The notes under the pieces are model-generated. The model saw only the letters and a program-made list of their open reading frames with translations. It did no database searches and was not told the DNA's origin. Below, piece by piece: positions 22,883 to 61,454 of a stretch of 64,000 bases of DNA. Each line of letters begins with the position of its first letter. The first letter of the stretch is position 1. Both the position numbers and the translations under genes were made by a program. The stretch lies in the NCBI RefSeq assembly GCF_030013595.1, contig NZ_CP122768.1; one strand, written 5' to 3'. This stretch comes from Escherichia coli (GTDB taxonomy: Bacteria; Pseudomonadota; Gammaproteobacteria; Enterobacterales; Enterobacteriaceae).

Positions 22883-23176
22883 ATGGCTGAACACAATATT
22901 ACGCCAGAAGTCATCATTTCCAAAACACAGCGCCGCTGTACCGTGGGTTATCTGCCCAACCGCAGCGACACGCCGGTGATCAAAATCAGCGCCAAATGGC
23001 TGAGAGAAGCGGGATTTGAGATCGGCACTGGCGTTACCGTGAAGATCTCGGAAGGTTGCCTGATCCTGCTTGCGGATAACAACGAAGTACAGGAACTGCG
23101 CAGGGAACTGTATCAGGTTAAACAGGCTGTTAAGGGGATGCGTGACGGGATGTTTAGTGTGCTGAACGAGAGTTAA
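22883..23176 (+). CDS. SymE-like toxin-family protein (AbrB/SpoVT-like fold)
   Basis: 97-aa ORF; segment ISAKWLREAGFEIGTGVTVKISEGCLILLA resembles the SymE core ([28 protein letters not shown]) as I recall it; AAGGTAG upstream of ATG. Confidence 0.6.
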   Translation: MAEHNITPEVIISKTQRRCTVGYLPNRSDTPVIKISAKWLREAGFEIGTGVTVKISEGCLILLADNNEVQELRRELYQVKQAVKGMRDGMFSVLNES

Positions 23177-23243
23177 ATAATAAAAAAGCCGGGAGATTTA
23201 ATGTCTACCCGGCCCACACATTATAATGTGTAAAACATATATT

Positions 23244-23684
23244 CTATTTATTTAAGTATTTTTTAGAGATTCTTAACCACCATGCTTTACCAGAATTAAA
23301 ATTTGAAATTAATACTTTCCCTTTTTTCCTTTTTAAAACATCAAGAATTACAGCATCAGATTTTTTTAATATCCCATCTTCTTGAGGAACACCTAACTCT
23401 ATCAATATATTAATTGAGTCAAATAGATGACCTATCTTTTCATATTCTTCATACAATAAATTACTTTCATTATTCGATATCTGAATTAAGTAATTAAATG
23501 TAACCCCCAAAATATTAGGAAATTTAGAGCTATTGACACTCGATATAAACTCCTGAACAATAGCTCTGTTTTTTAATTTCCCGGCACATAATAAAGCATA
23601 AATATTTCCAGCCAAACGTTCGATATCATGCGGATATCTATATCCTTTAGCAATTATTGCCTTAATTTTCTGTTCAGGAGTCAT
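23244..23684 (-). CDS. candidate Rhs immunity protein (no recognisable family)
   Basis: 146-aa ORF starting 2 nt after the Rhs stop codon, with a GGGAGG Shine-Dalgarno embedded in the last Rhs codons; AT-rich like the Rhs toxin tip. Confidence 0.6.
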   Translation of the reverse strand: MTPEQKIKAIIAKGYRYPHDIERLAGNIYALLCAGKLKNRAIVQEFISSVNSSKFPNILGVTFNYLIQISNNESNLLYEEYEKIGHLFDSINILIELGVPQEDGILKKSDAVILDVLKRKKGKVLISNFNSGKAWWLRISKKYLNK

Positions 23685-23686
23685 TA

Positions 23687-26600
23687 TCAGTACCTCCCGT
23701 TAGGAACAGAAAATCCAGGCAAACGCCTTAGATTTTCCCACGATTCAGGGAAGTGAGTTAAGATCACTGGTGTTTTCCCTATCTGACTTGTTGCAGTAAA
23801 CAAACCTGTTTCAGGATCATAATAGCCTACTCTAGGTTTATTCGTATACCTATCTCTATAAGTAAATTTCCTGCCATTTTGTATCGTGGTTCTTGCACTA
23901 ATATCATATTCTTTTACTGAATTTGCACCGACTTGTGAGCCATGTTTTTCAAAGTGATCTCTTAGGCCCGGCCCATCAACATTTTGTCGTGCTTTATTCC
24001 ATTTTGCATTTTTAGCCGTACCACAAAATAACCCAAGCGGATCGATCCAGCTTAACGGATTTGGCACATAAGCATAGAGGTTCAGCCCACCGTTTAATCC
24101 TATCGGGTCCGTTACCATGAACCGCCCGACATCCGGATCATAGTACCTGTGCAGATTGTAATGCAGCCCCGTTTCCCTGTCGAGGTACTGTCCCTGGTAG
24201 CGCAGGTTCTGCTCCACCCCGCCGTGGTCCTTCTCCTGTATCGTGTTACCCCAGACCTGATACCCCGTCTCCCACACGATTTTCCCGTCGCTGTCCGTCA
24301 TCTCTTCCGGCGCGCCGTTCACATCCGTGTGAAAATACAGTATCCGGTTCGGGCCCTCTTTGCCCGCCTTATCCACCCGCGCCAGCGGTTCATAACTCCC
24401 CGGGTCCCTGTAGATGTACAGGCTGTCTGTTCCCTCCGGCCTGCTCTCCTGCGCCAGCCGCATTCCGTCCCATAAAAATTTTGTCCGGTTGTACGGTTTA
24501 CCGTCAGGACTGATGTGCTGTTTTTCCGTCCGCCTCCCCAGCGCATCGTACACATACCGGTACGTCCCCCGCGCTGTCGTCACTTCCACCATCCGGTGTT
24601 CCGCATCATAACGGTAACTCTGCGTGCCGCTCCGCCCCTCCTTTTCCACCGCACGGCCAAATTCGTCGTAACGGTAGTGCACACCACGGTAAGACATCAG
24701 CCGGTTGAACGGCACCACGCTGTTTTCTGCCGTGGCCCTTTCCCCCGCGCGCCGCGCCAGCAGGTTTCCCGCCGCGTCGTACTGCCAGCTCGCCAGATAC
24801 CCCTCATCCTCCGAGCGGCACGCCGTGATGCGCCCCGTGGGGTCGTAGAAGTAATCCGTTTCCCCCCGCCGGCTGTGCCGCGTCTTCAGCAGTTCATCCT
24901 CGCCACTGTAGCTGTACTGCCGGTCCGTGAACGTCTCCGGTACCCCCCCGCGCATCCCGCTGTATGTCTCCCTGCGCTTCAGCCGCCCGCCGGGGTCGTA
25001 AAGCTGCCGCGTGCTCAGTCGCCCCTGGCTTCTGAGCACTTCACGGTGCAGGGCGTCACGTGTGAACTCGCTGATGACCTCCCGGTCCAGATTTATCTGC
25101 TGGAGATGGCCGCTGCCGTAGTACAGATGACGCTGCGTTCTGCCGTCCGGAAAGGTGGTGGCTGTCCGGTTGCTGAGTTCATCGTACTGATGGGTCAGGA
25201 CGCCCTGCGCCGTCTCCTCAGTCAGCATCCGCCCCAGTCTGTCGTAACTGAAGCGGATAATCTCCGGTGCGTCTGTTTCCCCGGCATCCGACCGTCGGCG
25301 GCGGATTTCCAGTAGCTGGTCTGCCGCATCATGGACGTATTCCGTACGGCTATCGGCTGTCTCCTTTGCCGTAAGCCGGCCCGCCGCATCACGTGCCAGC
25401 CGATGGCGGATTTCACCGCCCCGGTCCCCGGTGAACACCACTTCCGTGACCGCGTTCAGCGCGTTGTAGCGGTACGTCTGGCGGCAGCCGTCCGGATTTA
25501 TCTGCTCCGCCAGACGGTCCAGCACATCATGGCGGAACCGGTAGCTTTCTCCGTTCTCGTTTGTCAGCGTGACCAGACGCCCGTAAGCATCGTACCCGAA
25601 TGCCGTCCTGCGCCCCGTCGCGTCCGTCCGGCTGCGCACCCGGCCCTGCCCGTCCCGCTGCCAGCGCGTTATCCTCCCCATCGGGCTGGTGTACTTCACC
25701 AGCCTGCCCGCCGCGTCCGACTGGTAATTCACCGTGCGGCCGTCCGCCAGTATCACCTCCGTCAGGTGGCCGCTGTCGTCATACCCGTAGCGCGTGCTGT
25801 GGCTCTGCGCGTCTGTCATCCGTATCAGCCGCGTGCGTTCGTCGTAGAACCAGGCCGTCTGCGAGCCGGAACAGTCCGTGTGCCGCATGAGCTGCCCGTC
25901 TTCGTTCCACTGAAGGTATTTATTCCCCCCGCGCGCATCGGTTATCTGCACCACCTGGCCGTGGCGGTCATACTGATACCGGGTGTTCTGCTGCAGCGGG
26001 TCGGTCACCGCAAGAAGATTGCCGCGTTCATCGTACTCACAGCACCAGCTGTTCCCCGCCGCGTCCACCTCCGTTTCCGGCTGGTGCCACACCGGGTGCC
26101 ACTGTGTCTGTGCCACCCGCCCCAGCGGGTCGTGCGTCTCCGTGATATGCCCCTGCCGGTCATACACATAGCGCCATTTGCCGCCCTGCGCATCGGTCAT
26201 TCCCAGTAACAGCCGTTCTTCGTCGCTCCAGCGGAACGTCGTCACCTGCCCGGCTTCGTCCTGGTACGCCGTCACCTGGTTCTGCGCGTCCCACTGATGA
26301 TAACGCGTGCGCCCCAGCCCGTCCGTCACGCACAGCCTGCGTGACGCCAGGCTCCACGCCAGCCGGTACTGTTCACCGCTGTCCGTGTGGTGCCCCGTCA
26401 CCCGCCACGCTGCGTCATCCGGGCCTTCATACCAGCCCCACTGGTAATAATACCCTTCGCCGCCCGGCTGGCGGTGCAGGGTCATGCAGTGGTTTTCGTC
26501 GTAAGCAAACTCGCGCAGCAGGTGTCCCGTGCTGTCGTACACGCCGTTCAGGTCGCCGGCCTCGTCATAGCGGTAACGACGCAGCAGTAAAGGAGCCGTC

Positions 26601-28339
26601 TCAGGGAAATGCTGATAAATCTGTGTCACCCGCCGGGGATGCGCCGCCAGTTCATAATGCAGACGGATGCACGGACGCTGCTGTTCACCGCTGATTTGCG
26701 TGATGCGCCCCAGCTCGTCGTAGTACAGATTCAGACAGTTGCTGTTGCGGTCGCCCAGCATTTTCAGCCGCTGGCGCTGCGGGTGATGCGGGTCGGCCTC
26801 AAACAGAAAAAACTGCCCGTCATCGCTGCTGATAAGCCAGTGCCCCTGCTCACCCCGCCTTACCGCCAGTCCTTCGCCGGGGCTGTAAAACCCGCTCCCC
26901 GGCAGCACGGCCTCCATATCCAGGCGTCGTCCCATGCCCGACACAAAGGTCATACAGTTTTCGTCAGCAGTACCCGGCGTGCGCTCGAGGCTGACTTCAT
27001 ACATCACGCTCCAGCCCTGCCCGAACATCCCTTCCGTGCGGTCGTCACGACTGCTGTACACGCGCTGCCAGTCCAGCGGAAAGTGGCCCGGCAGACTGAA
27101 ATCGAAGTCATCGTCATCCGCCAGATATTTGGCTCCGGTGGCGGCATTGACCGGATGCGGAAGGGCACTGATGGCCTTCTGCGTCATCACCCCCATCCCG
27201 ACACTGGCAGCAAAACAGGCGATTTTAGAAAGCATTTTGCCCGGGCGAAGAAACATCAGCGCCACAGTTGCCACCAGGGTTATCTGCGACCTGCCGCTTC
27301 TGATATCCCTGACCACCAGTAACGGACCGCCAATGCGGACATCCGGTGACACAAACGCCCCGTTCCCCGGCTCATTCACCACCCAGGCCTCGCAGGTGCA
27401 GCGTGCCCCGCTGCGTGCCGCCGGCTGGCTGTTGATACGCACATCCCGCGCGCCTTCCGCGATATATTCCGCTGCGGGCGGTTCATCATCGCCTTTGAAC
27501 AGATTACTGATGCTGCCAATAACCGCATTCACTCCCTGAAAGGCGGTTTCCAGCATACCGCCCGGACTCAGCAGGTTAAGGGCCGTTCCCAGAGGGTCAT
27601 CCAGAAAGGCGGCTTTTTTTTGTGCGAGAAACTGCGTCAGTGAGGAGGGATGTTTATGGCAGTCGATTTTATCGTCAGGGGTCGGGGTGGAGCCCGGGGC
27701 CGCACTGGCCACGGTGGGCTGCCATAGTTCCGACACAAAATGTGTCACGCCATCCACCATTTCAGAACGCCCTTCTTCCGTACTGAGCTGGTCATGCAGC
27801 GCCCGGGACATCAGCACAGGCCCTGTCACCGGGTTAACCGCCAGGGCTATGGCCCCCGCCATTTCCAGATATTCCCCGGCCACATCCCGGAACGTTCTGG
27901 CGTCCTCCTGACGCTGCGCTTCTTCCTGTTCCGCCTTCGCCTGTGCCTCCTGCGCCTCAATGTCCTGCCGCGATGCCGCAGTCGCCGCTGCCCGCGCGGC
28001 AGGTTTGCTGTTGATCCATGTGTCGCCAGAGCCGGTGAGGATGTAACCTTCAATCTGAGGCGGGAAAAGCCAGTTCGCCAGTTGCTCACTTTCCCTACTG
28101 ATTCGGTCATTCCAGCCCTGATACGACATAAATACCGCTGTTGCTATACCGATCGCTAAAATGGTTGAGCAGCCCAGCGTTGCCACTTCAACTCCGCCCA
28201 GCGCCGCCATGGTTCCGACAACCAGAACATCCACCAGGGCTGTGGCGGCAACCTCTACAACTGCCCCCAGCACATCTGCCATAAACGACGTATGCAGCAG
28301 GGCATCACCCTGCCTTGCCGCCCAGAATGCCTCTTCCAT
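23687..28339 (-). CDS. Rhs-family polymorphic toxin: prePAAR motif and hydrophobic segments, PAAR-like region, YD-repeat core, DPxGL motifs, variable C-terminal toxin domain
   Basis: ORF track 1550 aa; N-terminal AARQGDALLH (AARxxDxxxH) then hydrophobic stretches; many YD/RYxYD repeats; VTDPIGLNGG...PNPLSWIDPLGL followed by a ~113-aa basic tail; occupies the K-12 rhsC position but differs from K-12 RhsC at both termini. Confidence 0.92.
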   Translation of the reverse strand: MEEAFWAARQGDALLHTSFMADVLGAVVEVAATALVDVLVVGTMAALGGVEVATLGCSTILAIGIATAVFMSYQGWNDRISRESEQLANWLFPPQIEGYILTGSGDTWINSKPAARAAATAASRQDIEAQEAQAKAEQEEAQRQEDARTFRDVAGEYLEMAGAIALAVNPVTGPVLMSRALHDQLSTEEGRSEMVDGVTHFVSELWQPTVASAAPGSTPTPDDKIDCHKHPSSLTQFLAQKKAAFLDDPLGTALNLLSPGGMLETAFQGVNAVIGSISNLFKGDDEPPAAEYIAEGARDVRINSQPAARSGARCTCEAWVVNEPGNGAFVSPDVRIGGPLLVVRDIRSGRSQITLVATVALMFLRPGKMLSKIACFAASVGMGVMTQKAISALPHPVNAATGAKYLADDDDFDFSLPGHFPLDWQRVYSSRDDRTEGMFGQGWSVMYEVSLERTPGTADENCMTFVSGMGRRLDMEAVLPGSGFYSPGEGLAVRRGEQGHWLISSDDGQFFLFEADPHHPQRQRLKMLGDRNSNCLNLYYDELGRITQISGEQQRPCIRLHYELAAHPRRVTQIYQHFPETAPLLLRRYRYDEAGDLNGVYDSTGHLLREFAYDENHCMTLHRQPGGEGYYYQWGWYEGPDDAAWRVTGHHTDSGEQYRLAWSLASRRLCVTDGLGRTRYHQWDAQNQVTAYQDEAGQVTTFRWSDEERLLLGMTDAQGGKWRYVYDRQGHITETHDPLGRVAQTQWHPVWHQPETEVDAAGNSWCCEYDERGNLLAVTDPLQQNTRYQYDRHGQVVQITDARGGNKYLQWNEDGQLMRHTDCSGSQTAWFYDERTRLIRMTDAQSHSTRYGYDDSGHLTEVILADGRTVNYQSDAAGRLVKYTSPMGRITRWQRDGQGRVRSRTDATGRRTAFGYDAYGRLVTLTNENGESYRFRHDVLDRLAEQINPDGCRQTYRYNALNAVTEVVFTGDRGGEIRHRLARDAAGRLTAKETADSRTEYVHDAADQLLEIRRRRSDAGETDAPEIIRFSYDRLGRMLTEETAQGVLTHQYDELSNRTATTFPDGRTQRHLYYGSGHLQQINLDREVISEFTRDALHREVLRSQGRLSTRQLYDPGGRLKRRETYSGMRGGVPETFTDRQYSYSGEDELLKTRHSRRGETDYFYDPTGRITACRSEDEGYLASWQYDAAGNLLARRAGERATAENSVVPFNRLMSYRGVHYRYDEFGRAVEKEGRSGTQSYRYDAEHRMVEVTTARGTYRYVYDALGRRTEKQHISPDGKPYNRTKFLWDGMRLAQESRPEGTDSLYIYRDPGSYEPLARVDKAGKEGPNRILYFHTDVNGAPEEMTDSDGKIVWETGYQVWGNTIQEKDHGGVEQNLRYQGQYLDRETGLHYNLHRYYDPDVGRFMVTDPIGLNGGLNLYAYVPNPLSWIDPLGLFCGTAKNAKWNKARQNVDGPGLRDHFEKHGSQVGANSVKEYDISARTTIQNGRKFTYRDRYTNKPRVGYYDPETGLFTATSQIGKTPVILTHFPESWENLRRLPGFSVPNGRY

Positions 28340-28357
28340 GTCCCGTTCCCTGTGTGA

Positions 28358-28558
28358 TTAATTCGTCCCGGCTTCCTGCCGCATCCTGAAGCGCAGATTC
28401 TTTTTAATTTCAGCCCAGCGCGTCATATCTGCCGGGGTCAGCGGTGTGGTTCTGGCGTAGGTGAAGGCCATCATGACCCGTTCACCCGGCAATACAAATG
28501 CCACCTGACACTGGTACACCTGCTCGTTACCCCGGAGAAACTGGCTCTGTATTTGCAA
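28358..28558 (-). other. possible remnant of a gene upstream of rhs (truncated Eag/DUF1795-like chaperone?)
   Basis: 66-codon ORF initiating at TTG with an in-frame stop two codons upstream, ending 18 bp before the Rhs start; no ATG start or clear RBS; identity not verifiable by eye. Confidence 0.25.
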
Positions 28559-29294
28559 ACCGCCTCATAGAGATAATATTCCGTCATAATAGAAGTCGTC
28601 CTTTTTAATAAATGAATTATTTATTGACAGGTTCTGTTTTTTAATCATGAATGTAATGTCTATCACCGCTTTACAGCACTCTTTATCTTTCAAGCCGTAA
28701 TCACTAATAACATTAAGCAATTACCCATATTTACAATGACCGGAACTGATATGCCGTTATGTATTTAACAATCCCAACATATTCACCATACCAATAAAAT
28801 CACGAGTAACAAACACGCTACCGCCTCCATATAAAAAATGGACAGCTTATAAAATTGCATCTTGCATAGAAAGGGCTGAGATATCGAGTGTATTTTAATT
28901 ATCAACTATAAATGTTGAATATTTTCATTAACAGAAACACATCTTATCCCATTAGATATGTTAACAATCAATTACTCTTAACATATCACTAAAGTATATA
29001 TTACTCTCTTTACTATCTACTTTTATTGCGGTAGCGATACAAATAGCAAAATTCGGAATTTATTTAGATGCAGGAATTAGAAAAAGGGATGGCGGCTTTC
29101 TCACCTTACCCTGAAGTTTCAGGAAAGTGTGTAAGGAAGGATGCAACCTAACTGGAGATTTCTGAGGATCTAGTTGCTTAGAGCGACAATGAAGGTGAAC
29201 GCATCCAGAGTAGTCCTATGAAAGGATACTATTGAAAATTGATGCTAAAACAGTGATTAAATGAACAACACCATGGAACCCGTTGATTCAAAAC

Positions 29295-29326
29295 GCCTAA
29301 ACCAGCCCCCTGATACGAGGCTGGCT
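29295..29326 (-). terminator. hairpin downstream of ybfA
   Basis: CCAGCC ... GGCTGG inverted repeat followed by a T-run on the minus strand. Confidence 0.4.
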
Positions 29327-29341
29327 TAAACGCGCAGGCAA

Positions 29342-29548
29342 TCAGTAAAAATCACCAGTTGCCTTTTCGGCCTGATCCATCCACACCGGTTTCTCGCTGG
29401 TTTTCGACCAGACGCGGTGCAGGTAGCTGTAAAAGCGGGCGCGGTCTTTCCAGAAAAGCATGAAAGGCAGCGCCAGAACGCCCGCTGCAACCGCATAAGT
29501 ACGGCGTATAAAGATAAGCCATGCAGGATATTCTCTGTAGAGTTCCAT
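29342..29548 (-). CDS. ybfA: DUF2517-family small membrane protein
   Basis: ORF track 68 aa [33 protein letters not shown]... Confidence 0.85.
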
Positions 29549-29757
29549 ACTTTTCTCCCCCTTTTGTATCTATCCGGTGAATGGCACCGGAAAAATGAAT
29601 TTGTTTATCTGATGAAAATAGTACCGCCTTTTGTGTAATTTTACTACTCATCCGACCACTTATTTTTGCTTATTGATGGTTTATTTACATTCACACTGTA
29701 ATTAAGTTACACAAAAGTTAAATTAATACTAACCATCAGTTAAATCATGGCTTTTGC

Positions 29758-29786
29758 CATTTTTATACTTTTTTTACACCCCGCCC
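29758..29786 (+). promoter_or_regulatory. KdpE-binding region of the kdpFABC promoter
   Basis: TTTTTATACTTTTTTTACACCCCGCCCG about 75 bp upstream of kdpF; matches the KdpE operator as I remember it. Confidence 0.5.
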
Positions 29787-29860
29787 GCAGATTTTTGCGA
29801 AATCTTTGCAGCCAGAATTCTACTCTTCCGGTATCACTTTTAGGCCACTGGAGGTGCACT

Positions 29861-29950
29861 GTGAGTGCAGGCGTGATAGCCGGCGTGTTGCTGGTGTTTT
29901 TATTACTGGGTTATCTGGTTTATGCCCTGATCAATGCGGAGGCGTTCTGA
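29861..29950 (+). CDS. kdpF: K+-transporting ATPase small subunit F
   Basis: GTG-initiated 29-codon hydrophobic ORF ([29 protein letters not shown]) with GGAGG RBS; stop overlaps kdpA ATG. Confidence 0.8.
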
Positions 29951-31623
29951 TGGCTGCGCAAGGGTTCTTACTGATTGCCACGTTTTTACTGGTGTTAATG
30001 GTGCTGGCGCGTCCTTTAGGCAGCGGGCTGGCGCGGCTGATTAACGACATACCTCTTCCCGGTACAGCGGGCGTTGAACGTATACTCTTTCGTTTACCTG
30101 GCGTCTCTGACAGTGAGATGAACTGGAAGCAGTATCTCTCTGCCATTCTCGGCCTGAACATGCTGGGGCTGGCGGTGCTGTTTTTTATGTTGCTCGGTCA
30201 GCACTATCTGCCGCTTAATCCACAGCAGTTGCCAGGGCTGTCGTGGGATCTGGCGCTGAATACCGCCGTCAGCTTTGTCACCAATACCAACTGGCAATCT
30301 TATAGCGGTGAAACCACGTTGAGCTATTTCAGCCAGATGGCGGGCTTAACGGTACAAAACTTTCTTTCTGCCGCCAGCGGGATTGCGGTGATTTTTGCCC
30401 TCATTCGTGCGTTTACCCGCCAGAGCATGAGCACACTCGGGAATGTCTGGGTCGATCTGTTACGTATCACGTTATGGGTGCTAGTCCCTGTGGCGTTGTT
30501 GATCGCACTGTTTTTTATTCAACAAGGTGCACTGCAAAACTTTCTGCCCTATCAGGCGGTGAATACCGTTGAAGGAGCGAAACAGCTGTTACCCATGGGT
30601 CCGGTGGCTTCTCAGGAAGCGATAAAGATGCTCGGCACTAACGGCGGTGGCTTCTTTAATGCCAACTCGTCGCATCCGTTTGAAAACCCAACCGCACTGA
30701 CCAACTTCGTGCAGATGCTGGCGATCTTCTTGATCCCAACGGCACTGTGCTTTGCCTTTGGCGAAGTGGCGGGCGATCGCCGTCAGGGGCGCATGTTGCT
30801 GTGGGCGATGTCAGTGATTTTTGTCATCTGCGTAGGCGTGGTGATGTGGGCAGAAGTTCAGGGTAATCCTCATCTGCTGGCGCTGGGTGCGGACAGCAGC
30901 ATCAATATGGAAGGTAAAGAGAGCCGTTTCGGCGTGCTGGTCAGTAGCCTGTTTGCGGTCGTGACTACGGCGGCTTCCTGTGGCGCGGTGATTGCGATGC
31001 ATGATTCGTTTACCGCTCTCGGTGGCATGGTGCCGATGTGGCTGATGCAAATTGGTGAAGTGGTATTCGGCGGTGTCGGTTCTGGTCTTTACGGCATGAT
31101 GCTGTTTGTTCTGCTGGCGGTGTTTATTGCCGGGCTGATGATTGGTCGTACACCGGAATATCTGGGTAAAAAAATCGACGTACGTGAGATGAAACTGACC
31201 GCGCTGGCGATTCTGGTCACCCCGACGCTGGTGCTGATGGGCGCGGCGCTGGCGATGATGACCGACGCCGGACGTAGCGCCATGCTCAACCCTGGCCCGC
31301 ATGGTTTTAGCGAAATGCTGTACGCCGTGTCGTCCGCCGCTAACAACAACGGCAGCGCCTTTGCCGGATTAAGCACCAACTCTCCATTCTGGAACTGTTT
31401 GCTGGCGTTCTGCATGTTTGTCGGTCGCTTCGGGGTAATTATCCCGGTGATGGCAATTGCCGGTTCGTTGGTGAGTAAAAAGAGCCAACCCGCCAGCTCC
31501 GGCACGCTGCCAACGCACGGCCCGCTGTTTGTTGGCCTGTTAATCGGCACCGTGTTGCTGGTTGGCGCACTGACCTTTATCCCTGCCCTGGCGCTTGGTC
31601 CGGTGGCGGAATATCTCTCCTGA
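29950..31623 (+). CDS. kdpA: K+-transporting ATPase subunit A
   Basis: Within ORF 29806..31623; start at [24 protein letters not shown] (ATG 29950), 557 aa. Confidence 0.95.
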
Positions 31624-60408: not shown

Positions 60409-60680
60409 AGTTACTGGGGCGCTTGTTGATTCTGATATGCAGTAAGGAAATGTTCCGGGTTTGCCACATCACTGTTTGACAACTCATCACTGTAGGCCAG
60501 TATTTCATTGATTAATTTCCCACCACTATTGTTGAATTCCGAATTTCATCCTGTATGACAAAAGAATGGCTGTAGGGTGGGGAAAAAACACAAAGTAAAC
60601 AATAATTGACGAATATAGCGCCACGCTGTTCGCAACCTAACCAAACAGTCACTTTCGAGCAATTTTCCTTGAAAAAGAGG

Positions 60681-60749: not shown

Positions 60750-60826
60750 GGCTACGTAGCTCAGTTGGTTAGAGCACATCACTCATAATGATGGGGTCAC
60801 AGGTTCGAATCCCGTCGTAGCCACCA
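60750..60826 (+). tRNA. metT: tRNA-Met (elongator, anticodon CAU)
   Basis: 77-nt cloverleaf GGCTACGTAGCTCAGTTGGTTAGAGC...ending CCA; anticodon loop CTCATAA. Confidence 0.95.
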
Positions 60827-60835
60827 TCTTTTTTT

Positions 60836-60920
60836 GCGGGAGTGGCGAAATTGGTAGACGCACCAGATTTAGGTTCTGGCGCCGCAAGGTGTGCGAGTTC
60901 AAGTCTCGCCTCCCGCACCA
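60836..60920 (+). tRNA. leuW: tRNA-Leu (anticodon UAG), long variable arm
   Basis: 85 nt GCGGGAGTGGCGAAATTGGTAGACGC...CTCCCGCACCA; anticodon loop TTTAGGT. Confidence 0.93.
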
Positions 60921-60943
60921 TTCACCAGAAAGCGTTGTACGGA

Positions 60944-61018
60944 TGGGGTATCGCCAAGCGGTAAGGCACCGGTTTTTGATACCGGCATTCCCTGGTTCGA
61001 ATCCAGGTACCCCAGCCA
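60944..61018 (+). tRNA. glnU: tRNA-Gln (anticodon UUG)
   Basis: 75 nt TGGGGTATCGCCAAGCGGTAAGGCACCGG-TTTTTGATA-CCGG...; anticodon TTG. Confidence 0.95.
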
Positions 61019-61052
61019 TCTTCTTCGAGTAAGCGGTTCACCGCCCGGTTAT

Positions 61053-61127
61053 TGGGGTATCGCCAAGCGGTAAGGCACCGGTTTTTGATACCGGCATTCC
61101 CTGGTTCGAATCCAGGTACCCCAGCCA
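61053..61127 (+). tRNA. glnW: tRNA-Gln (anticodon UUG)
   Basis: Identical sequence to glnU. Confidence 0.95.
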
Positions 61128-61142
61128 TCGAAGAAACAATCT

Positions 61143-61219
61143 GGCTACGTAGCTCAGTTGGTTAGAGCACATCACTCATAATGATGGGGTCACAGGTTCG
61201 AATCCCGTCGTAGCCACCA
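61143..61219 (+). tRNA. metU: tRNA-Met (elongator, anticodon CAU)
   Basis: Identical sequence to metT. Confidence 0.95.
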
Positions 61220-61267
61220 AATTCTGAATGTGTCGAATAAGTTCGGCAAATTCACAAACCAATTTGT

Positions 61268-61342
61268 TGGGGTATCGCCAAGCGGTAAGGCACCGGATTC
61301 TGATTCCGGCATTCCGAGGTTCGAATCCTCGTACCCCAGCCA
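61268..61342 (+). tRNA. glnV: tRNA-Gln (anticodon CUG)
   Basis: 75 nt; anticodon stem-loop CCGGA-TTCTGAT-TCCGG. Confidence 0.93.
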
Positions 61343-61379
61343 ATTTATTCAAGACGCTTACCTTGTAAGTGCACCCAGT

Positions 61380-61454
61380 TGGGGTATCGCCAAGCGGTAA
61401 GGCACCGGATTCTAATTCCGGCATTCCGAGGTTCGAATCCTCGTACCCCAGCCA
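61380..61454 (+). tRNA. glnX: tRNA-Gln with anticodon CUA (amber-suppressor allele, supE-type)
   Basis: Identical to the tRNA at 61268..61342 except a single G to A change in the anticodon (TTCTAAT versus TTCTGAT); glnX name assigned by position next to ubiF. Confidence 0.9.

What the first reader, a model, noticed from the sequence alone, without database searches (positions are those of the whole stretch)
28559..29341. About 780 bp of AT-rich non-coding DNA between the Rhs start and ybfA
No ORF of 60 codons or more on either strand, composition far more AT-rich than the flanking genes, and numerous A/T tracts. This looks like horizontally acquired, potentially H-NS-silenced upstream sequence of the Rhs element and may hold its promoter or an unannotated small RNA.
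Basis: seen in the sequence. Interest (0 to 1): 0.3.

Follow-up and report, generated by a model that had tools for sequence, protein, structure and literature searches.

The report
AT-rich scar upstream of orphan Rhs toxin
The 780-bp AT-rich gap is real but ordinary: it is non-coding filler at the edge of a horizontally acquired, partly decayed Rhs toxin cassette next to ybfA, made of the ybfA terminator, about 580 bp of orphan DNA and the stump of a lost vgrG gene, with no sign of a small RNA or hidden gene.

Summary
Window 28588-29341 is 35% GC, against 60% for rhs and 52% for the whole window. It has no ORF over 51 codons. Its A/T tracts are only what the composition predicts.

It is not a uniform promoter region. 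It is a composite:
- **ybfA terminator:** a 17-bp-stem hairpin at 29293-29333.
- **Orphan DNA:** about 580 bp of AT-rich sequence (28714-29292), found only in this island type. 204 of 5426 complete E. coli genomes have it, always next to ybfA and never annotated. Nothing similar turned up in plasmids, phages or 100,044 species-representative genomes.
- **vgrG stump:** a relic of the vgrG 3' end plus the vgrG-eag junction (28588-28713).

The finding's first 29 bp belong to an eag chaperone pseudogene with a 223-bp internal deletion, which sits between the spacer and rhs.

The spacer diverges faster than its flanks. Every ORF of 25 codons or more is broken in other alleles, and ISEc1 insertions and a 99-bp deletion are tolerated. 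There is no Rfam or Pfam hit, no above-chance sigma-70 site and no covariation.

"Horizontally acquired" is supported. H-NS silencing cannot be tested here. A promoter or sRNA has no positive evidence.

The one unexplained item is a 30-bp invariant block with a 13-bp palindrome (29042-29071).

Interest is low.

The parts
29342..29548 (-). ybfA (YbfA family, DUF2517), 68 aa. This is the core-genome gene that bounds the spacer and is co-oriented with eag-rhs.
   Evidence: ORF list. Annotated ybfA in the 100%-identical stretch of NZ_CM149870.1. Present in 5424 of 5426 genomes.
29293..29333 (-). Probable ybfA intrinsic terminator: a 17-bp stem with a 7-nt loop, followed by UUUG. It starts 9 nt after the ybfA stop codon.
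   Evidence: RNA fold of 29275-29345(-) gives -31 kcal/mol, z = -4.15, and 0 of 200 shuffles fold as well. A 32-nt run is invariant in 8 alleles (P = 0.012). The same hairpin follows ybfA in an O157:H7 rhsC-type locus, while K-12 has an unrelated canonical terminator. The changes I traced in the divergent allele L024 convert G-U pairs to A-U or G-C, by my reading. The U-tract is weak.
29271..29272 (.). Junction of a 27-bp deletion specific to the window and 13P477T alleles. It removed one arm of a perfect 13-bp hairpin (AACGTCTTCCATG-N8-CATGGAAGACGTT) that all other alleles carry.
   Evidence: Alignments A2/A4. Fold of the C11 allele gives -48.1 kcal/mol, z = -8.3.
28714..29292 (.). AT-rich orphan non-coding DNA specific to this ybfA-linked eag-rhs island. 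Origin unknown.
   Evidence: BLAST: 204 of 5426 E. coli genomes, unannotated in all 40 sampled rows. No plasmid or phage homologue. 0 hits for its most conserved 22-mer in 100,044 species-representative genomes. All 7 metagenome contigs show the same context. Six-frame Pfam search gives 0 hits. Six-frame HMMER against 1.84 billion proteins gives only 3 hits: two traced to the same locus, the third a 36-aa peptide 94% identical to a spacer frame. All ORFs of 25 codons or more are broken in other alleles.
29042..29071 (.). 30-bp invariant block AATAGCAAAATTCGGAATTTATTTAGATGC, containing the 6-1-6 palindrome AAATTCgGAATTT (29049-29061). The only candidate cis-element; unexplained.
   Evidence: Invariant in all 8 BLAST-found alleles (longest-run permutation P = 0.023). 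Also invariant in the ~80%-identical partial allele L024. Alleles L016-L022 were retrieved with a 22-mer inside the block and are not independent.
28835..28844 (.). ISEc1 (ISAs1-family, H-repeat type) insertion site used in other strains; the target is duplicated. In D7-type strains window 28714-28812 is deleted and replaced by the IS.
   Evidence: L002 has a clean 1290-bp insertion with an 11-bp duplication. L005 has the IS plus a ~99-bp deletion, with intact eag and rhs annotated.
28640..28696 (-). Relic of the last ~9-19 codons of a vgrG gene (...KAVIDITFMIKK). The stop codon is lost.
   Evidence: blastn: 78.6% over window 28565-28667 against the vgrG-eag junction of FHI_NMBU_03, E = 1e-18. 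tblastx: GLKDKECCKAVIDITFMIK against the VgrG C-terminus GTSEKTALQLAIDVTFMNK*. The same junction occurs in Escherichia sp. E1V33, where VgrG is 664 aa with Phage_GPD and Gp5_C domains.
28588..28639 (-). Former vgrG-eag intergenic region with the eag ribosome-binding site (AAGGA, 28603..28599). It overlaps the only consensus sigma-70-like site on this strand (TTAAAA-17-AATAAT, 28644..28616).
   Evidence: Homology as above. Promoter scan. This is the only part of the spacer kept in every allele, including the IS-disrupted ones.
28358..28587 (-). eag (Eag/DcrB/DUF1795 T6SS chaperone) pseudogene. A 223-bp internal deletion after codon 7 shifts the frame.
   Evidence: PGAP annotates it 'DcrB-related protein, incomplete'. 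The 66-aa C-terminal ORF matches PF08786 positions 77-126 of 127. Alignment to the intact 150-aa allele.
23687..28339 (-). rhs, encoding a class I prePAAR effector (1550 aa). This is the gene the spacer lies upstream of.
   Evidence: The N-terminus AARQGDALLH fits AARxxDxxxH (motif definition from PMC7773334). Pfam finds PAAR_motif, DUF6531, RHS_repeat x10 and RHS.

Best explanation
The region is the non-coding left edge of a horizontally acquired, vgrG-less ('orphan') eag-rhs type VI secretion effector cassette inserted immediately downstream of ybfA. It is a composite scar, not a dedicated genetic element.

**Parts, reading along the minus strand from ybfA:**
1. A long hairpin that most likely terminates ybfA transcription.
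2. About 580 bp of AT-rich DNA of unknown foreign origin. It drifts nearly neutrally and tolerates indels, ISEc1 insertion and a 99-bp deletion.
3. The last ~10-20 codons of a vgrG gene plus the old vgrG-eag junction, which still carries the eag ribosome-binding site.

**Shown:** the composition, the restricted distribution, the vgrG and eag relics, the lack of any conserved ORF or known RNA, and the hairpin.

**Inferred:**
- The cassette arrived as vgrG-eag-rhs and lost vgrG by deletion or recombination.
- Any transcription of eag'-rhs comes from ybfA read-through or from weak promoters in the ~125 bp nearest eag, the only part retained in all alleles.
- Like other AT-rich foreign DNA in E. 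coli, the tract is probably bound and silenced by H-NS.

In the window strain the cassette is decaying, because the Eag chaperone gene that prePAAR Rhs effectors need for export is broken.
For: **Distribution and boundary**
- The spacer is in 204 of 5426 genomes, with nothing annotated under the match in any of the 40 sampled rows. Every locus fetched (12 genomes, 7 metagenome contigs) lies between ybfA and eag-rhs.
- Megablast similarity to 5424 genomes ends 4 bp past the ybfA stop codon.
- K-12 and O157 carry a different Rhs element with an unrelated leader.

**Composition**
- 35% GC, the second-lowest 754-bp window in the 64 kb.

**vgrG relic**
- 78-80% DNA identity to vgrG-eag junctions at another E. 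coli locus and in Escherichia sp. E1V33.
- Matching C-terminal peptides.

**eag pseudogene**
-.

**Weak constraint**
- Spacer identity between alleles is 79-98%. The eag 3' part is 97-99% (98.5-99% where the whole 196-bp segment aligns) and the ybfA-kdpF intergenic region is 96-99%.
- Other alleles carry 5-, 9-, 10-, 11- and 27-bp indels.
- IS insertion and deletion occur in strains whose eag and rhs are intact.

**No hidden gene or RNA**
-.

**Terminator hairpin**
-.

**Literature context**
- Both classes of prePAAR effector require an Eag chaperone for export, and about 90% of prePAAR effector genes sit beside an eag gene (PMC7773334).
- Deleting hns raises T6SS mRNA levels in EHEC (PMC13141884).
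Against: - No transcript, TSS or H-NS occupancy data could be consulted, so both the promoter location and the silencing are inference.
- The origin of the central ~580 bp is unknown. It could be a gene decayed beyond recognition.
- A 30-bp block (29042-29071) is invariant across alleles that otherwise differ by up to ~20%. That argues at least one short functional element exists, which 'neutral filler' does not explain.
- The hairpin has only a weak U-tract, and the terminator scan did not call it.
Confidence: 0.7

Rival explanations
1. The tract is a dedicated regulatory leader that holds the eag-rhs promoter, kept off by H-NS and perhaps controlled by a specific regulator binding the conserved palindrome.
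For: - AT-rich foreign DNA upstream of a T6SS effector operon that has lost its vgrG must supply transcription from somewhere.
- There is a 30-bp invariant block with a 13-bp palindrome.
- There is one sigma-70-like site in the right orientation, 29 bp upstream of the eag ATG.
- Deleting hns raises T6SS mRNA levels in EHEC (PMC13141884).
Against: - Promoter-like sites are fewer and weaker than in shuffles.
- The -35 of the one site is not conserved in C11-type alleles.
- The H-NS motif and A-tracts are not enriched.
- ISEc1 splits the tract 130-260 bp upstream of eag in about a quarter of carriers while eag and rhs stay intact.
- The conserved block lies ~455-485 bp upstream of eag, beyond those IS insertions.
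Confidence: 0.3
2. The tract encodes an unannotated small RNA, either free-standing or derived from the ybfA 3' UTR ending at the 29293-29333 hairpin.
For: - It is a long ORF-free intergenic region.
- There is a stable conserved hairpin directly after ybfA, and several local hairpins, for example 28955-28987 with z = -3.3.
- One compensatory G-C to A-U change occurs in a local hairpin around 28765-28800.
Against: - No Rfam match at E <= 10.
- No terminator-like site within the tract under the scan's criteria.
- Covariation is negligible: -1.13 kcal/mol, with 5 of 211 pairs changed on both sides, mostly in implausible long-range helices.
- Indels hit most predicted hairpins.
- The tract is single-copy and absent from 96% of E. 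coli genomes.
Confidence: 0.07
3. The tract hides a tiny protein-coding gene. One candidate is the 15-aa hydrophobic ORF MEAVACLLLVILLVW (28830..28783, minus strand). The other is the overlapping 19-aa GTG ORF (28816..28757), which has a perfect GGAGG 7 nt upstream. It could be a type I toxin-like peptide or a leader peptide.
For: - The 19-aa ORF is intact in all 8 alleles and has an ideal Shine-Dalgarno sequence and spacing.
- The 15-aa ORF shows 2 synonymous and 3 conservative hydrophobic changes.
- The start region CTACCGCCTCCATAT is a 15-nt invariant run.
Against: - All 7 substitutions in the 19-aa ORF are non-synonymous and non-conservative.
- The 15-aa ORF has no Shine-Dalgarno sequence, loses its last codon in one allele, and 2 synonymous changes out of 5 is what chance gives (P ~0.37, my calculation).
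- The 15-nt run is not significant (P = 0.14).
- D7-type strains have deleted most of this segment.
- Neither ORF has any relative outside this locus among 1.84 billion proteins.
- No Sib/Ibs-type Rfam hit.
Confidence: 0.04
4. The central ~580 bp is the unrecognisable remnant of one or more genes, for example AT-rich accessory genes like the two small ORFs that precede vgrG at the ansP-linked cassette.
For: - Both flanking pieces are demonstrable gene relics (vgrG, eag).
- The accessory genes and leader of the related cassette are similarly AT-rich, 36-37% GC.
- The 29061-29292 part is less AT-rich (43% GC) and contains ~50-codon stop-free stretches.
Against: - No tblastx or blastn similarity to that cassette beyond the junction.
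- No Pfam hit in six frames.
- No protein relative outside this same locus among 1.84 billion proteins.
- The stop-free stretches are about as many as chance predicts at this composition (my calculation).
Confidence: 0.12

Closest known systems
vgrG-eag-rhs T6SS effector cassettes (class I prePAAR Rhs effectors with Eag/DUF1795 chaperones; Ahmad et al. 2020, PMC7773334)
   Same: - The rhs product has the AARxxDxxxH prePAAR motif, PAAR, DUF6531 and RHS repeats.
- The gene immediately upstream is a DcrB/DUF1795 eag.
- The ~110 bp upstream of eag are homologous to the vgrG 3' end and vgrG-eag junction of intact cassettes.
   Different: - vgrG is gone except for its last ~10-20 codons.
- eag carries a 223-bp frameshifting deletion.
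- Where vgrG and its accessory genes would be, there are ~580 bp of unrelated AT-rich DNA abutting ybfA.
K-12 RhsC element and its 242-bp ybfA-rhsC intergenic region
   Same: Same chromosomal slot (kdp-ybfA | Rhs | ybgA), same orientation, and an AT-rich leader preceded by a ybfA terminator.
   Different: - No sequence similarity beyond the few bases after the ybfA stop codon.
- K-12 RhsC is a classical Rhs without eag.
- Its leader is one third the length and its terminator is a different, canonical hairpin with a U-tract.
Xenogeneic AT-rich DNA silenced by H-NS in Enterobacteriaceae (the concept of Navarre/Lucchini 2006, cited from my own knowledge)
   Same: Much lower GC than the host genome, patchy strain distribution, and adjacency to T6SS/Rhs genes. 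H-NS represses T6SS genes in EHEC (PMC13141884).
   Different: No occupancy data exist for this tract. H-NS high-affinity motifs and A-tracts are at chance level.
h3R, the hcp3-vgrG3 intergenic regulatory region of the EHEC T6SS (PMC13141884)
   Same: A long intergenic region inside a T6SS-related operon, described as containing a terminator, a promoter and regulatory sites.
   Different: Different locus. I ran no sequence comparison between the two, and the functions of h3R were shown experimentally, whereas nothing is shown here.

Membership tests
vgrG-eag-rhs T6SS effector cassette (class I prePAAR effector) | Effector N-terminus carries the prePAAR motif AARxxDxxxH followed by a TM region and PAAR | tested here: met
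   The Rhs starts MEEAFWAARQGDALLH.... PAAR_motif, DUF6531, RHS_repeat and RHS domains are found. The motif definition comes from PMC7773334.
vgrG-eag-rhs T6SS effector cassette (class I prePAAR effector) | Intact eag (DUF1795/DcrB) chaperone gene directly upstream of the effector | tested here: not met
   Homologous gene present but broken: 223-bp internal deletion and frameshift. Only profile positions 77-126 of 127 of PF08786 remain in frame. It is intact in C11, CUWW06, KCJ3K291 and D7.
vgrG-eag-rhs T6SS effector cassette (class I prePAAR effector) | vgrG gene upstream of eag | tested here: not met
   Only the last ~9-19 codons are recognisable, 28640-28696. Six-frame searches of the rest find no VgrG.
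H-NS-silenced xenogeneic DNA | AT content well above the host average, and strain-restricted distribution | tested here: met
   35% GC against 52%. Found in 204 of 5426 genomes.
H-NS-silenced xenogeneic DNA | H-NS occupancy (ChIP) and derepression in an hns mutant | not testable with these tools
   No expression or ChIP data are available for strains with this island.
H-NS-silenced xenogeneic DNA | Enrichment of high-affinity H-NS motif or A-tracts | tested here: not met
   2 sites at 8/10 or better, against 1.8 in shuffles. A/T tracts are at the shuffle expectation. This feature is supportive rather than strictly defining.
Bacterial small RNA gene | Match to a described RNA family | tested here: not met
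   No Rfam hit in 27500-30500 at E <= 10 other than chance miRNA/snoRNA-type matches outside or below threshold. Gathering-level hits across the window are only 7 tRNAs.
Bacterial small RNA gene | Own promoter plus intrinsic terminator, and structure supported by covariation | tested here: not met
   No terminator call inside the tract, and promoter sites are below the shuffle level. Covariation term is -1.13 kcal/mol. Power is limited, with 8 alleles at 83-100% identity.
Rho-independent terminator (of ybfA) | Stable GC-rich stem-loop just after the stop codon, followed by a U-tract | tested here: inconclusive
   The stem-loop is present and strong (-31 kcal/mol, z = -4.15), and conserved. The tail is only UUUG, and the scan did not call it.
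Small protein / type I toxin gene | ORF intact across alleles with a coding-type substitution pattern | tested here: not met
   Only a 12-aa and a 19-aa ORF are intact in all alleles. The 19-aa ORF has 7 of 7 non-synonymous changes.
K-12 ybfA-rhsC intergenic region | Sequence homology to the K-12 spacer | tested here: not met
   K-12-type genomes match only window 29338-29560, which is ybfA. Direct alignment shows unrelated sequence.

The most novel reading that the evidence does not exclude
The 30-bp invariant block (29042-29071) with its 13-bp palindrome AAATTCgGAATTT is an operator or nucleation site for an unidentified DNA-binding protein. That protein would control this orphan Rhs cassette, or ybfA 3' processing. 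On this reading the 'filler' carries a dedicated switch for an effector module that lacks its own vgrG.
Probability: 0.12. Interest if true: 0.35.

Novelty: new member of a known kind. Interest (0 to 1): 0.12.

Why it matters
It matters little beyond annotation. The result shows that a long, unannotated, AT-rich gap in about 4% of E. coli genomes is the decayed edge of an orphan T6SS Rhs effector cassette. It is made of a vgrG stump, a broken eag chaperone gene and an ISEc1 landing zone, not a hidden gene or RNA.

It gives annotators three features to mark: the ybfA terminator, the vgrG relic and the eag pseudogene 5' end. It also documents that the ybfA-ybgA slot is occupied by unrelated Rhs elements in different lineages.

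If the conserved 30-bp palindromic block proved to be a regulator site, it would offer a handle on how orphan Rhs effectors are switched on. That is speculative.

Tried and rejected
- **Known RNA family.** Rfam E-value mode on 27500-30500 and gathering mode on the whole window found nothing relevant.
- **Sigma-70 promoters and terminators.** The consensus scan and my own PWM scan both came out below shuffle level.
- **Decayed gene.**
  - Six-frame Pfam search gave 0 hits.
  - tblastx against a complete hyp-hyp-vgrG-eag-rhs cassette matched only the junction.
  - Six frames concatenated and searched by HMMER against 1.84 billion proteins gave three hits. Two were traced to gene-caller ORFs on the same locus in other assemblies. 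The third is a 36-aa peptide 94% identical to a spacer frame and was not traced.
- **Relatives outside E. coli.**
  - The conserved 22-mer had 0 hits in 100,044 species-representative genomes.
  - An Eag-protein scan of the same collection found only Escherichia sp. E1V33, which has an intact vgrG instead of the spacer.
  - Plasmid and phage collections gave nothing apart from one mislabelled chromosome.
  - The metagenome scan gave 7 contigs, all with the same context.
- **Small ORFs.** A systematic test of all ORFs of 10 codons or more across 8 alleles gave no coding signature.
- **RNA structure.** RNAalifold on 8 alleles showed negligible covariation.
- **Repeats.** No tandem repeats. Only a 10-bp inverted repeat (28955-28987) and chance-level short repeats.
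- **A-tract and H-NS motif enrichment.** At chance level.
- **Literature.** ybfA+rhs papers gave nothing on this region. The Shigella Ssr3 prediction lies on the other side of ybfA, and Ssr1 is at a different Rhs locus.
- **Assigning the palindrome to a known transcription factor from memory.** Rejected as unreliable.
Full report
**1. What is at the coordinates**

The window is E. coli. The stretch 28340-29560 is 100% identical to strain HCP5S3_I2. The gene order there is ybgA, a SymE-family gene, an immunity-like ORF, rhs, a 'DcrB-related protein, incomplete', ybfA, then kdpFABCDE.

In window coordinates:
- rhs is 23687-28339 on the minus strand.
- ybfA is 29342-29548 on the minus strand.
- The ORF list shows nothing longer than 51 codons between them, apart from a 66-codon ORF at 28358-28558.

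GC content is 35.3% for 28588-29341, 59.9% for rhs and 52.1% for the window. Only 0.7% of 754-bp windows in the 64 kb are as AT-rich. The single lower one is the Rhs C-terminal toxin and immunity region.

So the core observation is correct. Two details are not:
- A/T tracts are no more frequent than in composition-matched shuffles: 13 runs of 4 or more against 11.3 +/- 3.0 expected.
- The tract does not touch the Rhs start.

**2. The eag pseudogene**

The 66-codon ORF matches the C-terminal part of Pfam DcrB (PF08786, profile positions 77-126 of 127). Strains C11, CUWW06, KCJ3K291 and D7 have an intact 150-aa gene at the same place.

Alignment shows that the window allele keeps the native start (ATG at 28587, MTEYYLY...). 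It has lost 223 bp after codon 7, which shifts the frame. The first 29 bp of the finding are therefore the 5' end of an eag pseudogene.

The Rhs protein begins MEEAFWAARQGDALLH. This fits the prePAAR motif AARxxDxxxH, and the protein has PAAR, DUF6531 and RHS repeats. Both classes of prePAAR effector require an Eag chaperone for export, and about 90% sit beside an eag gene (PMC7773334). In window-type alleles eag is broken, and rhs itself is annotated as frameshifted in three of the five such genomes I fetched. The cassette is decaying.

**3. The vgrG relic**

A sensitive BLAST of the spacer against all complete E. coli genomes found, outside the ybfA locus, only a ~70-bp match. It lies at the vgrG-eag junction of a hyp-hyp-vgrG-eag-rhs cassette next to ansP.

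- Locally, window 28565-28667 aligns at 78.6% (E = 1e-18).
- The translated minus strand GLKDKECCKAVIDITFMIK aligns with the VgrG C-terminus GTSEKTALQLAIDVTFMNK*.
- Escherichia sp. E1V33 shows the same junction behind a 664-aa VgrG ending ...AIDATFMTKK*.

Window 28588-28639 is thus the former vgrG-eag intergenic region, including the eag ribosome-binding site. Window 28640-~28696 is the last ~9-19 codons of vgrG. Nothing further upstream resembles that cassette.

**4. The ybfA end**

Directly after the ybfA stop codon, the minus strand folds into a 17-bp-stem hairpin at 29293-33. The fold is -31 kcal/mol with z = -4.15.

- Its core is a 32-nt run invariant in eight alleles (P = 0.012).
- The same hairpin follows ybfA in an O157:H7 strain whose Rhs element is the classical RhsC type.
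- K-12 has an unrelated canonical terminator.
- In a ~80%-identical allele (L024), the changes I traced in the outer part of the stem turn G-U pairs into A-U or G-C. This is my reading.

It is most simply the ybfA terminator, although its U-tract is weak and the scan did not call it.

Other alleles have a second perfect 13-bp hairpin just downstream. A 27-bp deletion at 29271/29272 removed one of its arms in the window.

**5. The middle ~580 bp (28714-29292)**

*Distribution*
- Found in 204 of 5426 complete genomes, single-copy, with nothing annotated under the match in any of the 40 sampled rows.
- Alleles range from 83% to 100% identity.
- Every locus I fetched lies between ybfA and eag-rhs.
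- Nothing similar in plasmids or phages.
- The most conserved 22-mer has no match in 100,044 species-representative genomes.
- Seven metagenome contigs all show the same context.

*Coding potential*
- Six-frame translation hits no Pfam family.
- Against 1.84 billion proteins there are only three hits. Two were traced to the same locus in other assemblies. The third is a 36-aa peptide 94% identical to a spacer frame.
- Every ORF of 25 codons or more is destroyed in other alleles by indels or start loss.
- Two mini-ORFs survive in all alleles. The 19-aa one, despite a perfect GGAGG, has only non-synonymous differences.
- An overlapping 15-aa hydrophobic ORF shows a pattern compatible with chance.

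*Regulatory and RNA signals*
- No Rfam match.
- Promoter-like sites are below shuffle expectation.
- RNAalifold finds essentially no covariation.

*Constraint*
- The spacer is less conserved than its flanks. It is 79-98% identical between alleles, against 97-99% for the eag 3' part (98.5-99% where the whole 196-bp segment aligns) and 96-99% for the ybfA-kdpF intergenic region.
- ISEc1 has inserted at 28835-28844 with an 11-bp target duplication in one lineage.
- In another lineage ISEc1 replaces 28714-28812. Both lineages keep eag and rhs intact.
- About 59 of the 204 carriers lack a contiguous copy of the spacer.
- Only 28588-28713 is kept everywhere.

**6. One thing that does not fit 'filler'**

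The block AATAGCAAAATTCGGAATTTATTTAGATGC (29042-29071) contains the 6-1-6 palindrome AAATTCgGAATTT.

- It is invariant in all eight independently found alleles (longest-run permutation P = 0.023).
- It is also invariant in a ~80%-identical partial allele.
- The metagenome alleles are not independent evidence, because I retrieved them with a 22-mer from this block.
- I could not assign it to a promoter, a known RNA or a known regulator. It stays unexplained.

**7. Interpretation**

The tract is the left-hand scar of a horizontally acquired eag-rhs T6SS effector cassette that lost its vgrG. It consists of the ybfA terminator, AT-rich orphan DNA evolving with little constraint, and the vgrG/eag junction.

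- 'Horizontally acquired' is supported.
- H-NS silencing is plausible from composition and from what is known of T6SS genes in E. coli (PMC13141884), but it is untested.
- A dedicated promoter or small RNA has no positive evidence.
- If eag'-rhs is transcribed at all, the source is most likely ybfA read-through or a weak start in the ~125 bp next to eag. That is inference.

This is an ordinary feature of an accessory island. It is useful for annotation but of low interest.

Noticed in passing
window 28358-28587 (-): The Eag (DcrB/DUF1795) chaperone gene of the Rhs effector is a pseudogene, with a 223-bp internal frameshifting deletion. The same deletion is shared by 13P477T, R32_14_1F, 2A and A20. 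In three of those four, rhs is also annotated as frameshifted.
   Followed up: yes
window 22883-23176 (+) and 23244-23684 (-): A SymE-family type I toxin-like gene (97 aa) sits at the far end of the Rhs island, between ybgA and the 146-aa immunity-like ORF. No SymR-type RNA reached Rfam gathering score anywhere in the window.
   Followed up: no
window 23171-23924: The lowest-GC 754-bp stretch of the whole window (31.6%) covers the Rhs C-terminal toxin domain and its immunity gene. It is even more AT-rich than the finding.
   Followed up: no
L011 2185-2282 (C11) and equivalents; window 29271/29272: All alleles except the window and 13P477T carry a perfect 13-bp inverted repeat, AACGTCTTCCATG-N8-CATGGAAGACGTT, right after the ybfA hairpin. 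It may form a tandem terminator or be a protein-binding site. The window has lost one arm through a 27-bp deletion.
   Followed up: partly
window 29293-29341 vs L006 5935-6010 (K-12 type) and L023 (O157): E. coli has at least two unrelated sequences directly after the ybfA stop codon. K-12 has a canonical terminator. O157:H7 and this island share a long hairpin. So the variable-region boundary differs by ~50 bp depending on which genomes are compared.
   Followed up: partly
window 60534-60546: A near-copy of the conserved palindrome (AAATTCGGAATTC) lies ~200 bp upstream of a cluster of seven tRNA genes (60750-61451). Matches with 2 or fewer mismatches number 8 in the window against 2.2 expected, though 2 of 100 shuffles reach that count.
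   Followed up: no
window 29549-29860 (ybfA-kdpF intergenic): A Shigella flexneri study predicted an sRNA candidate 'Ssr3' in the ybfA/kdpA intergenic region and detected it by RT-PCR (PMC4782007, Table 1). That region is on the other side of ybfA from the finding. It also contains the only terminator-like hit of the scan, 29747-29760 (+).
   Followed up: no
L024 1-66 (GCA_013369175.2 contig end): A ~80%-identical allele of the ybfA-proximal half of the spacer is joined at window-equivalent ~28992 to unrelated GC-rich sequence at a contig end. It may be another mobile element or a different island arrangement. The organism was not identified.
   Followed up: no
L015 13615-15434 (FHI_NMBU_03, ansP-linked cassette): The intact vgrG-eag-rhs cassette at the ansP/yddH locus is preceded by two AT-rich hypothetical genes (176 and 118 aa, 36% GC). 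It also has its own ~940-bp unannotated AT-rich leader (37% GC), unrelated in sequence to the ybfA spacer.
   Followed up: partly
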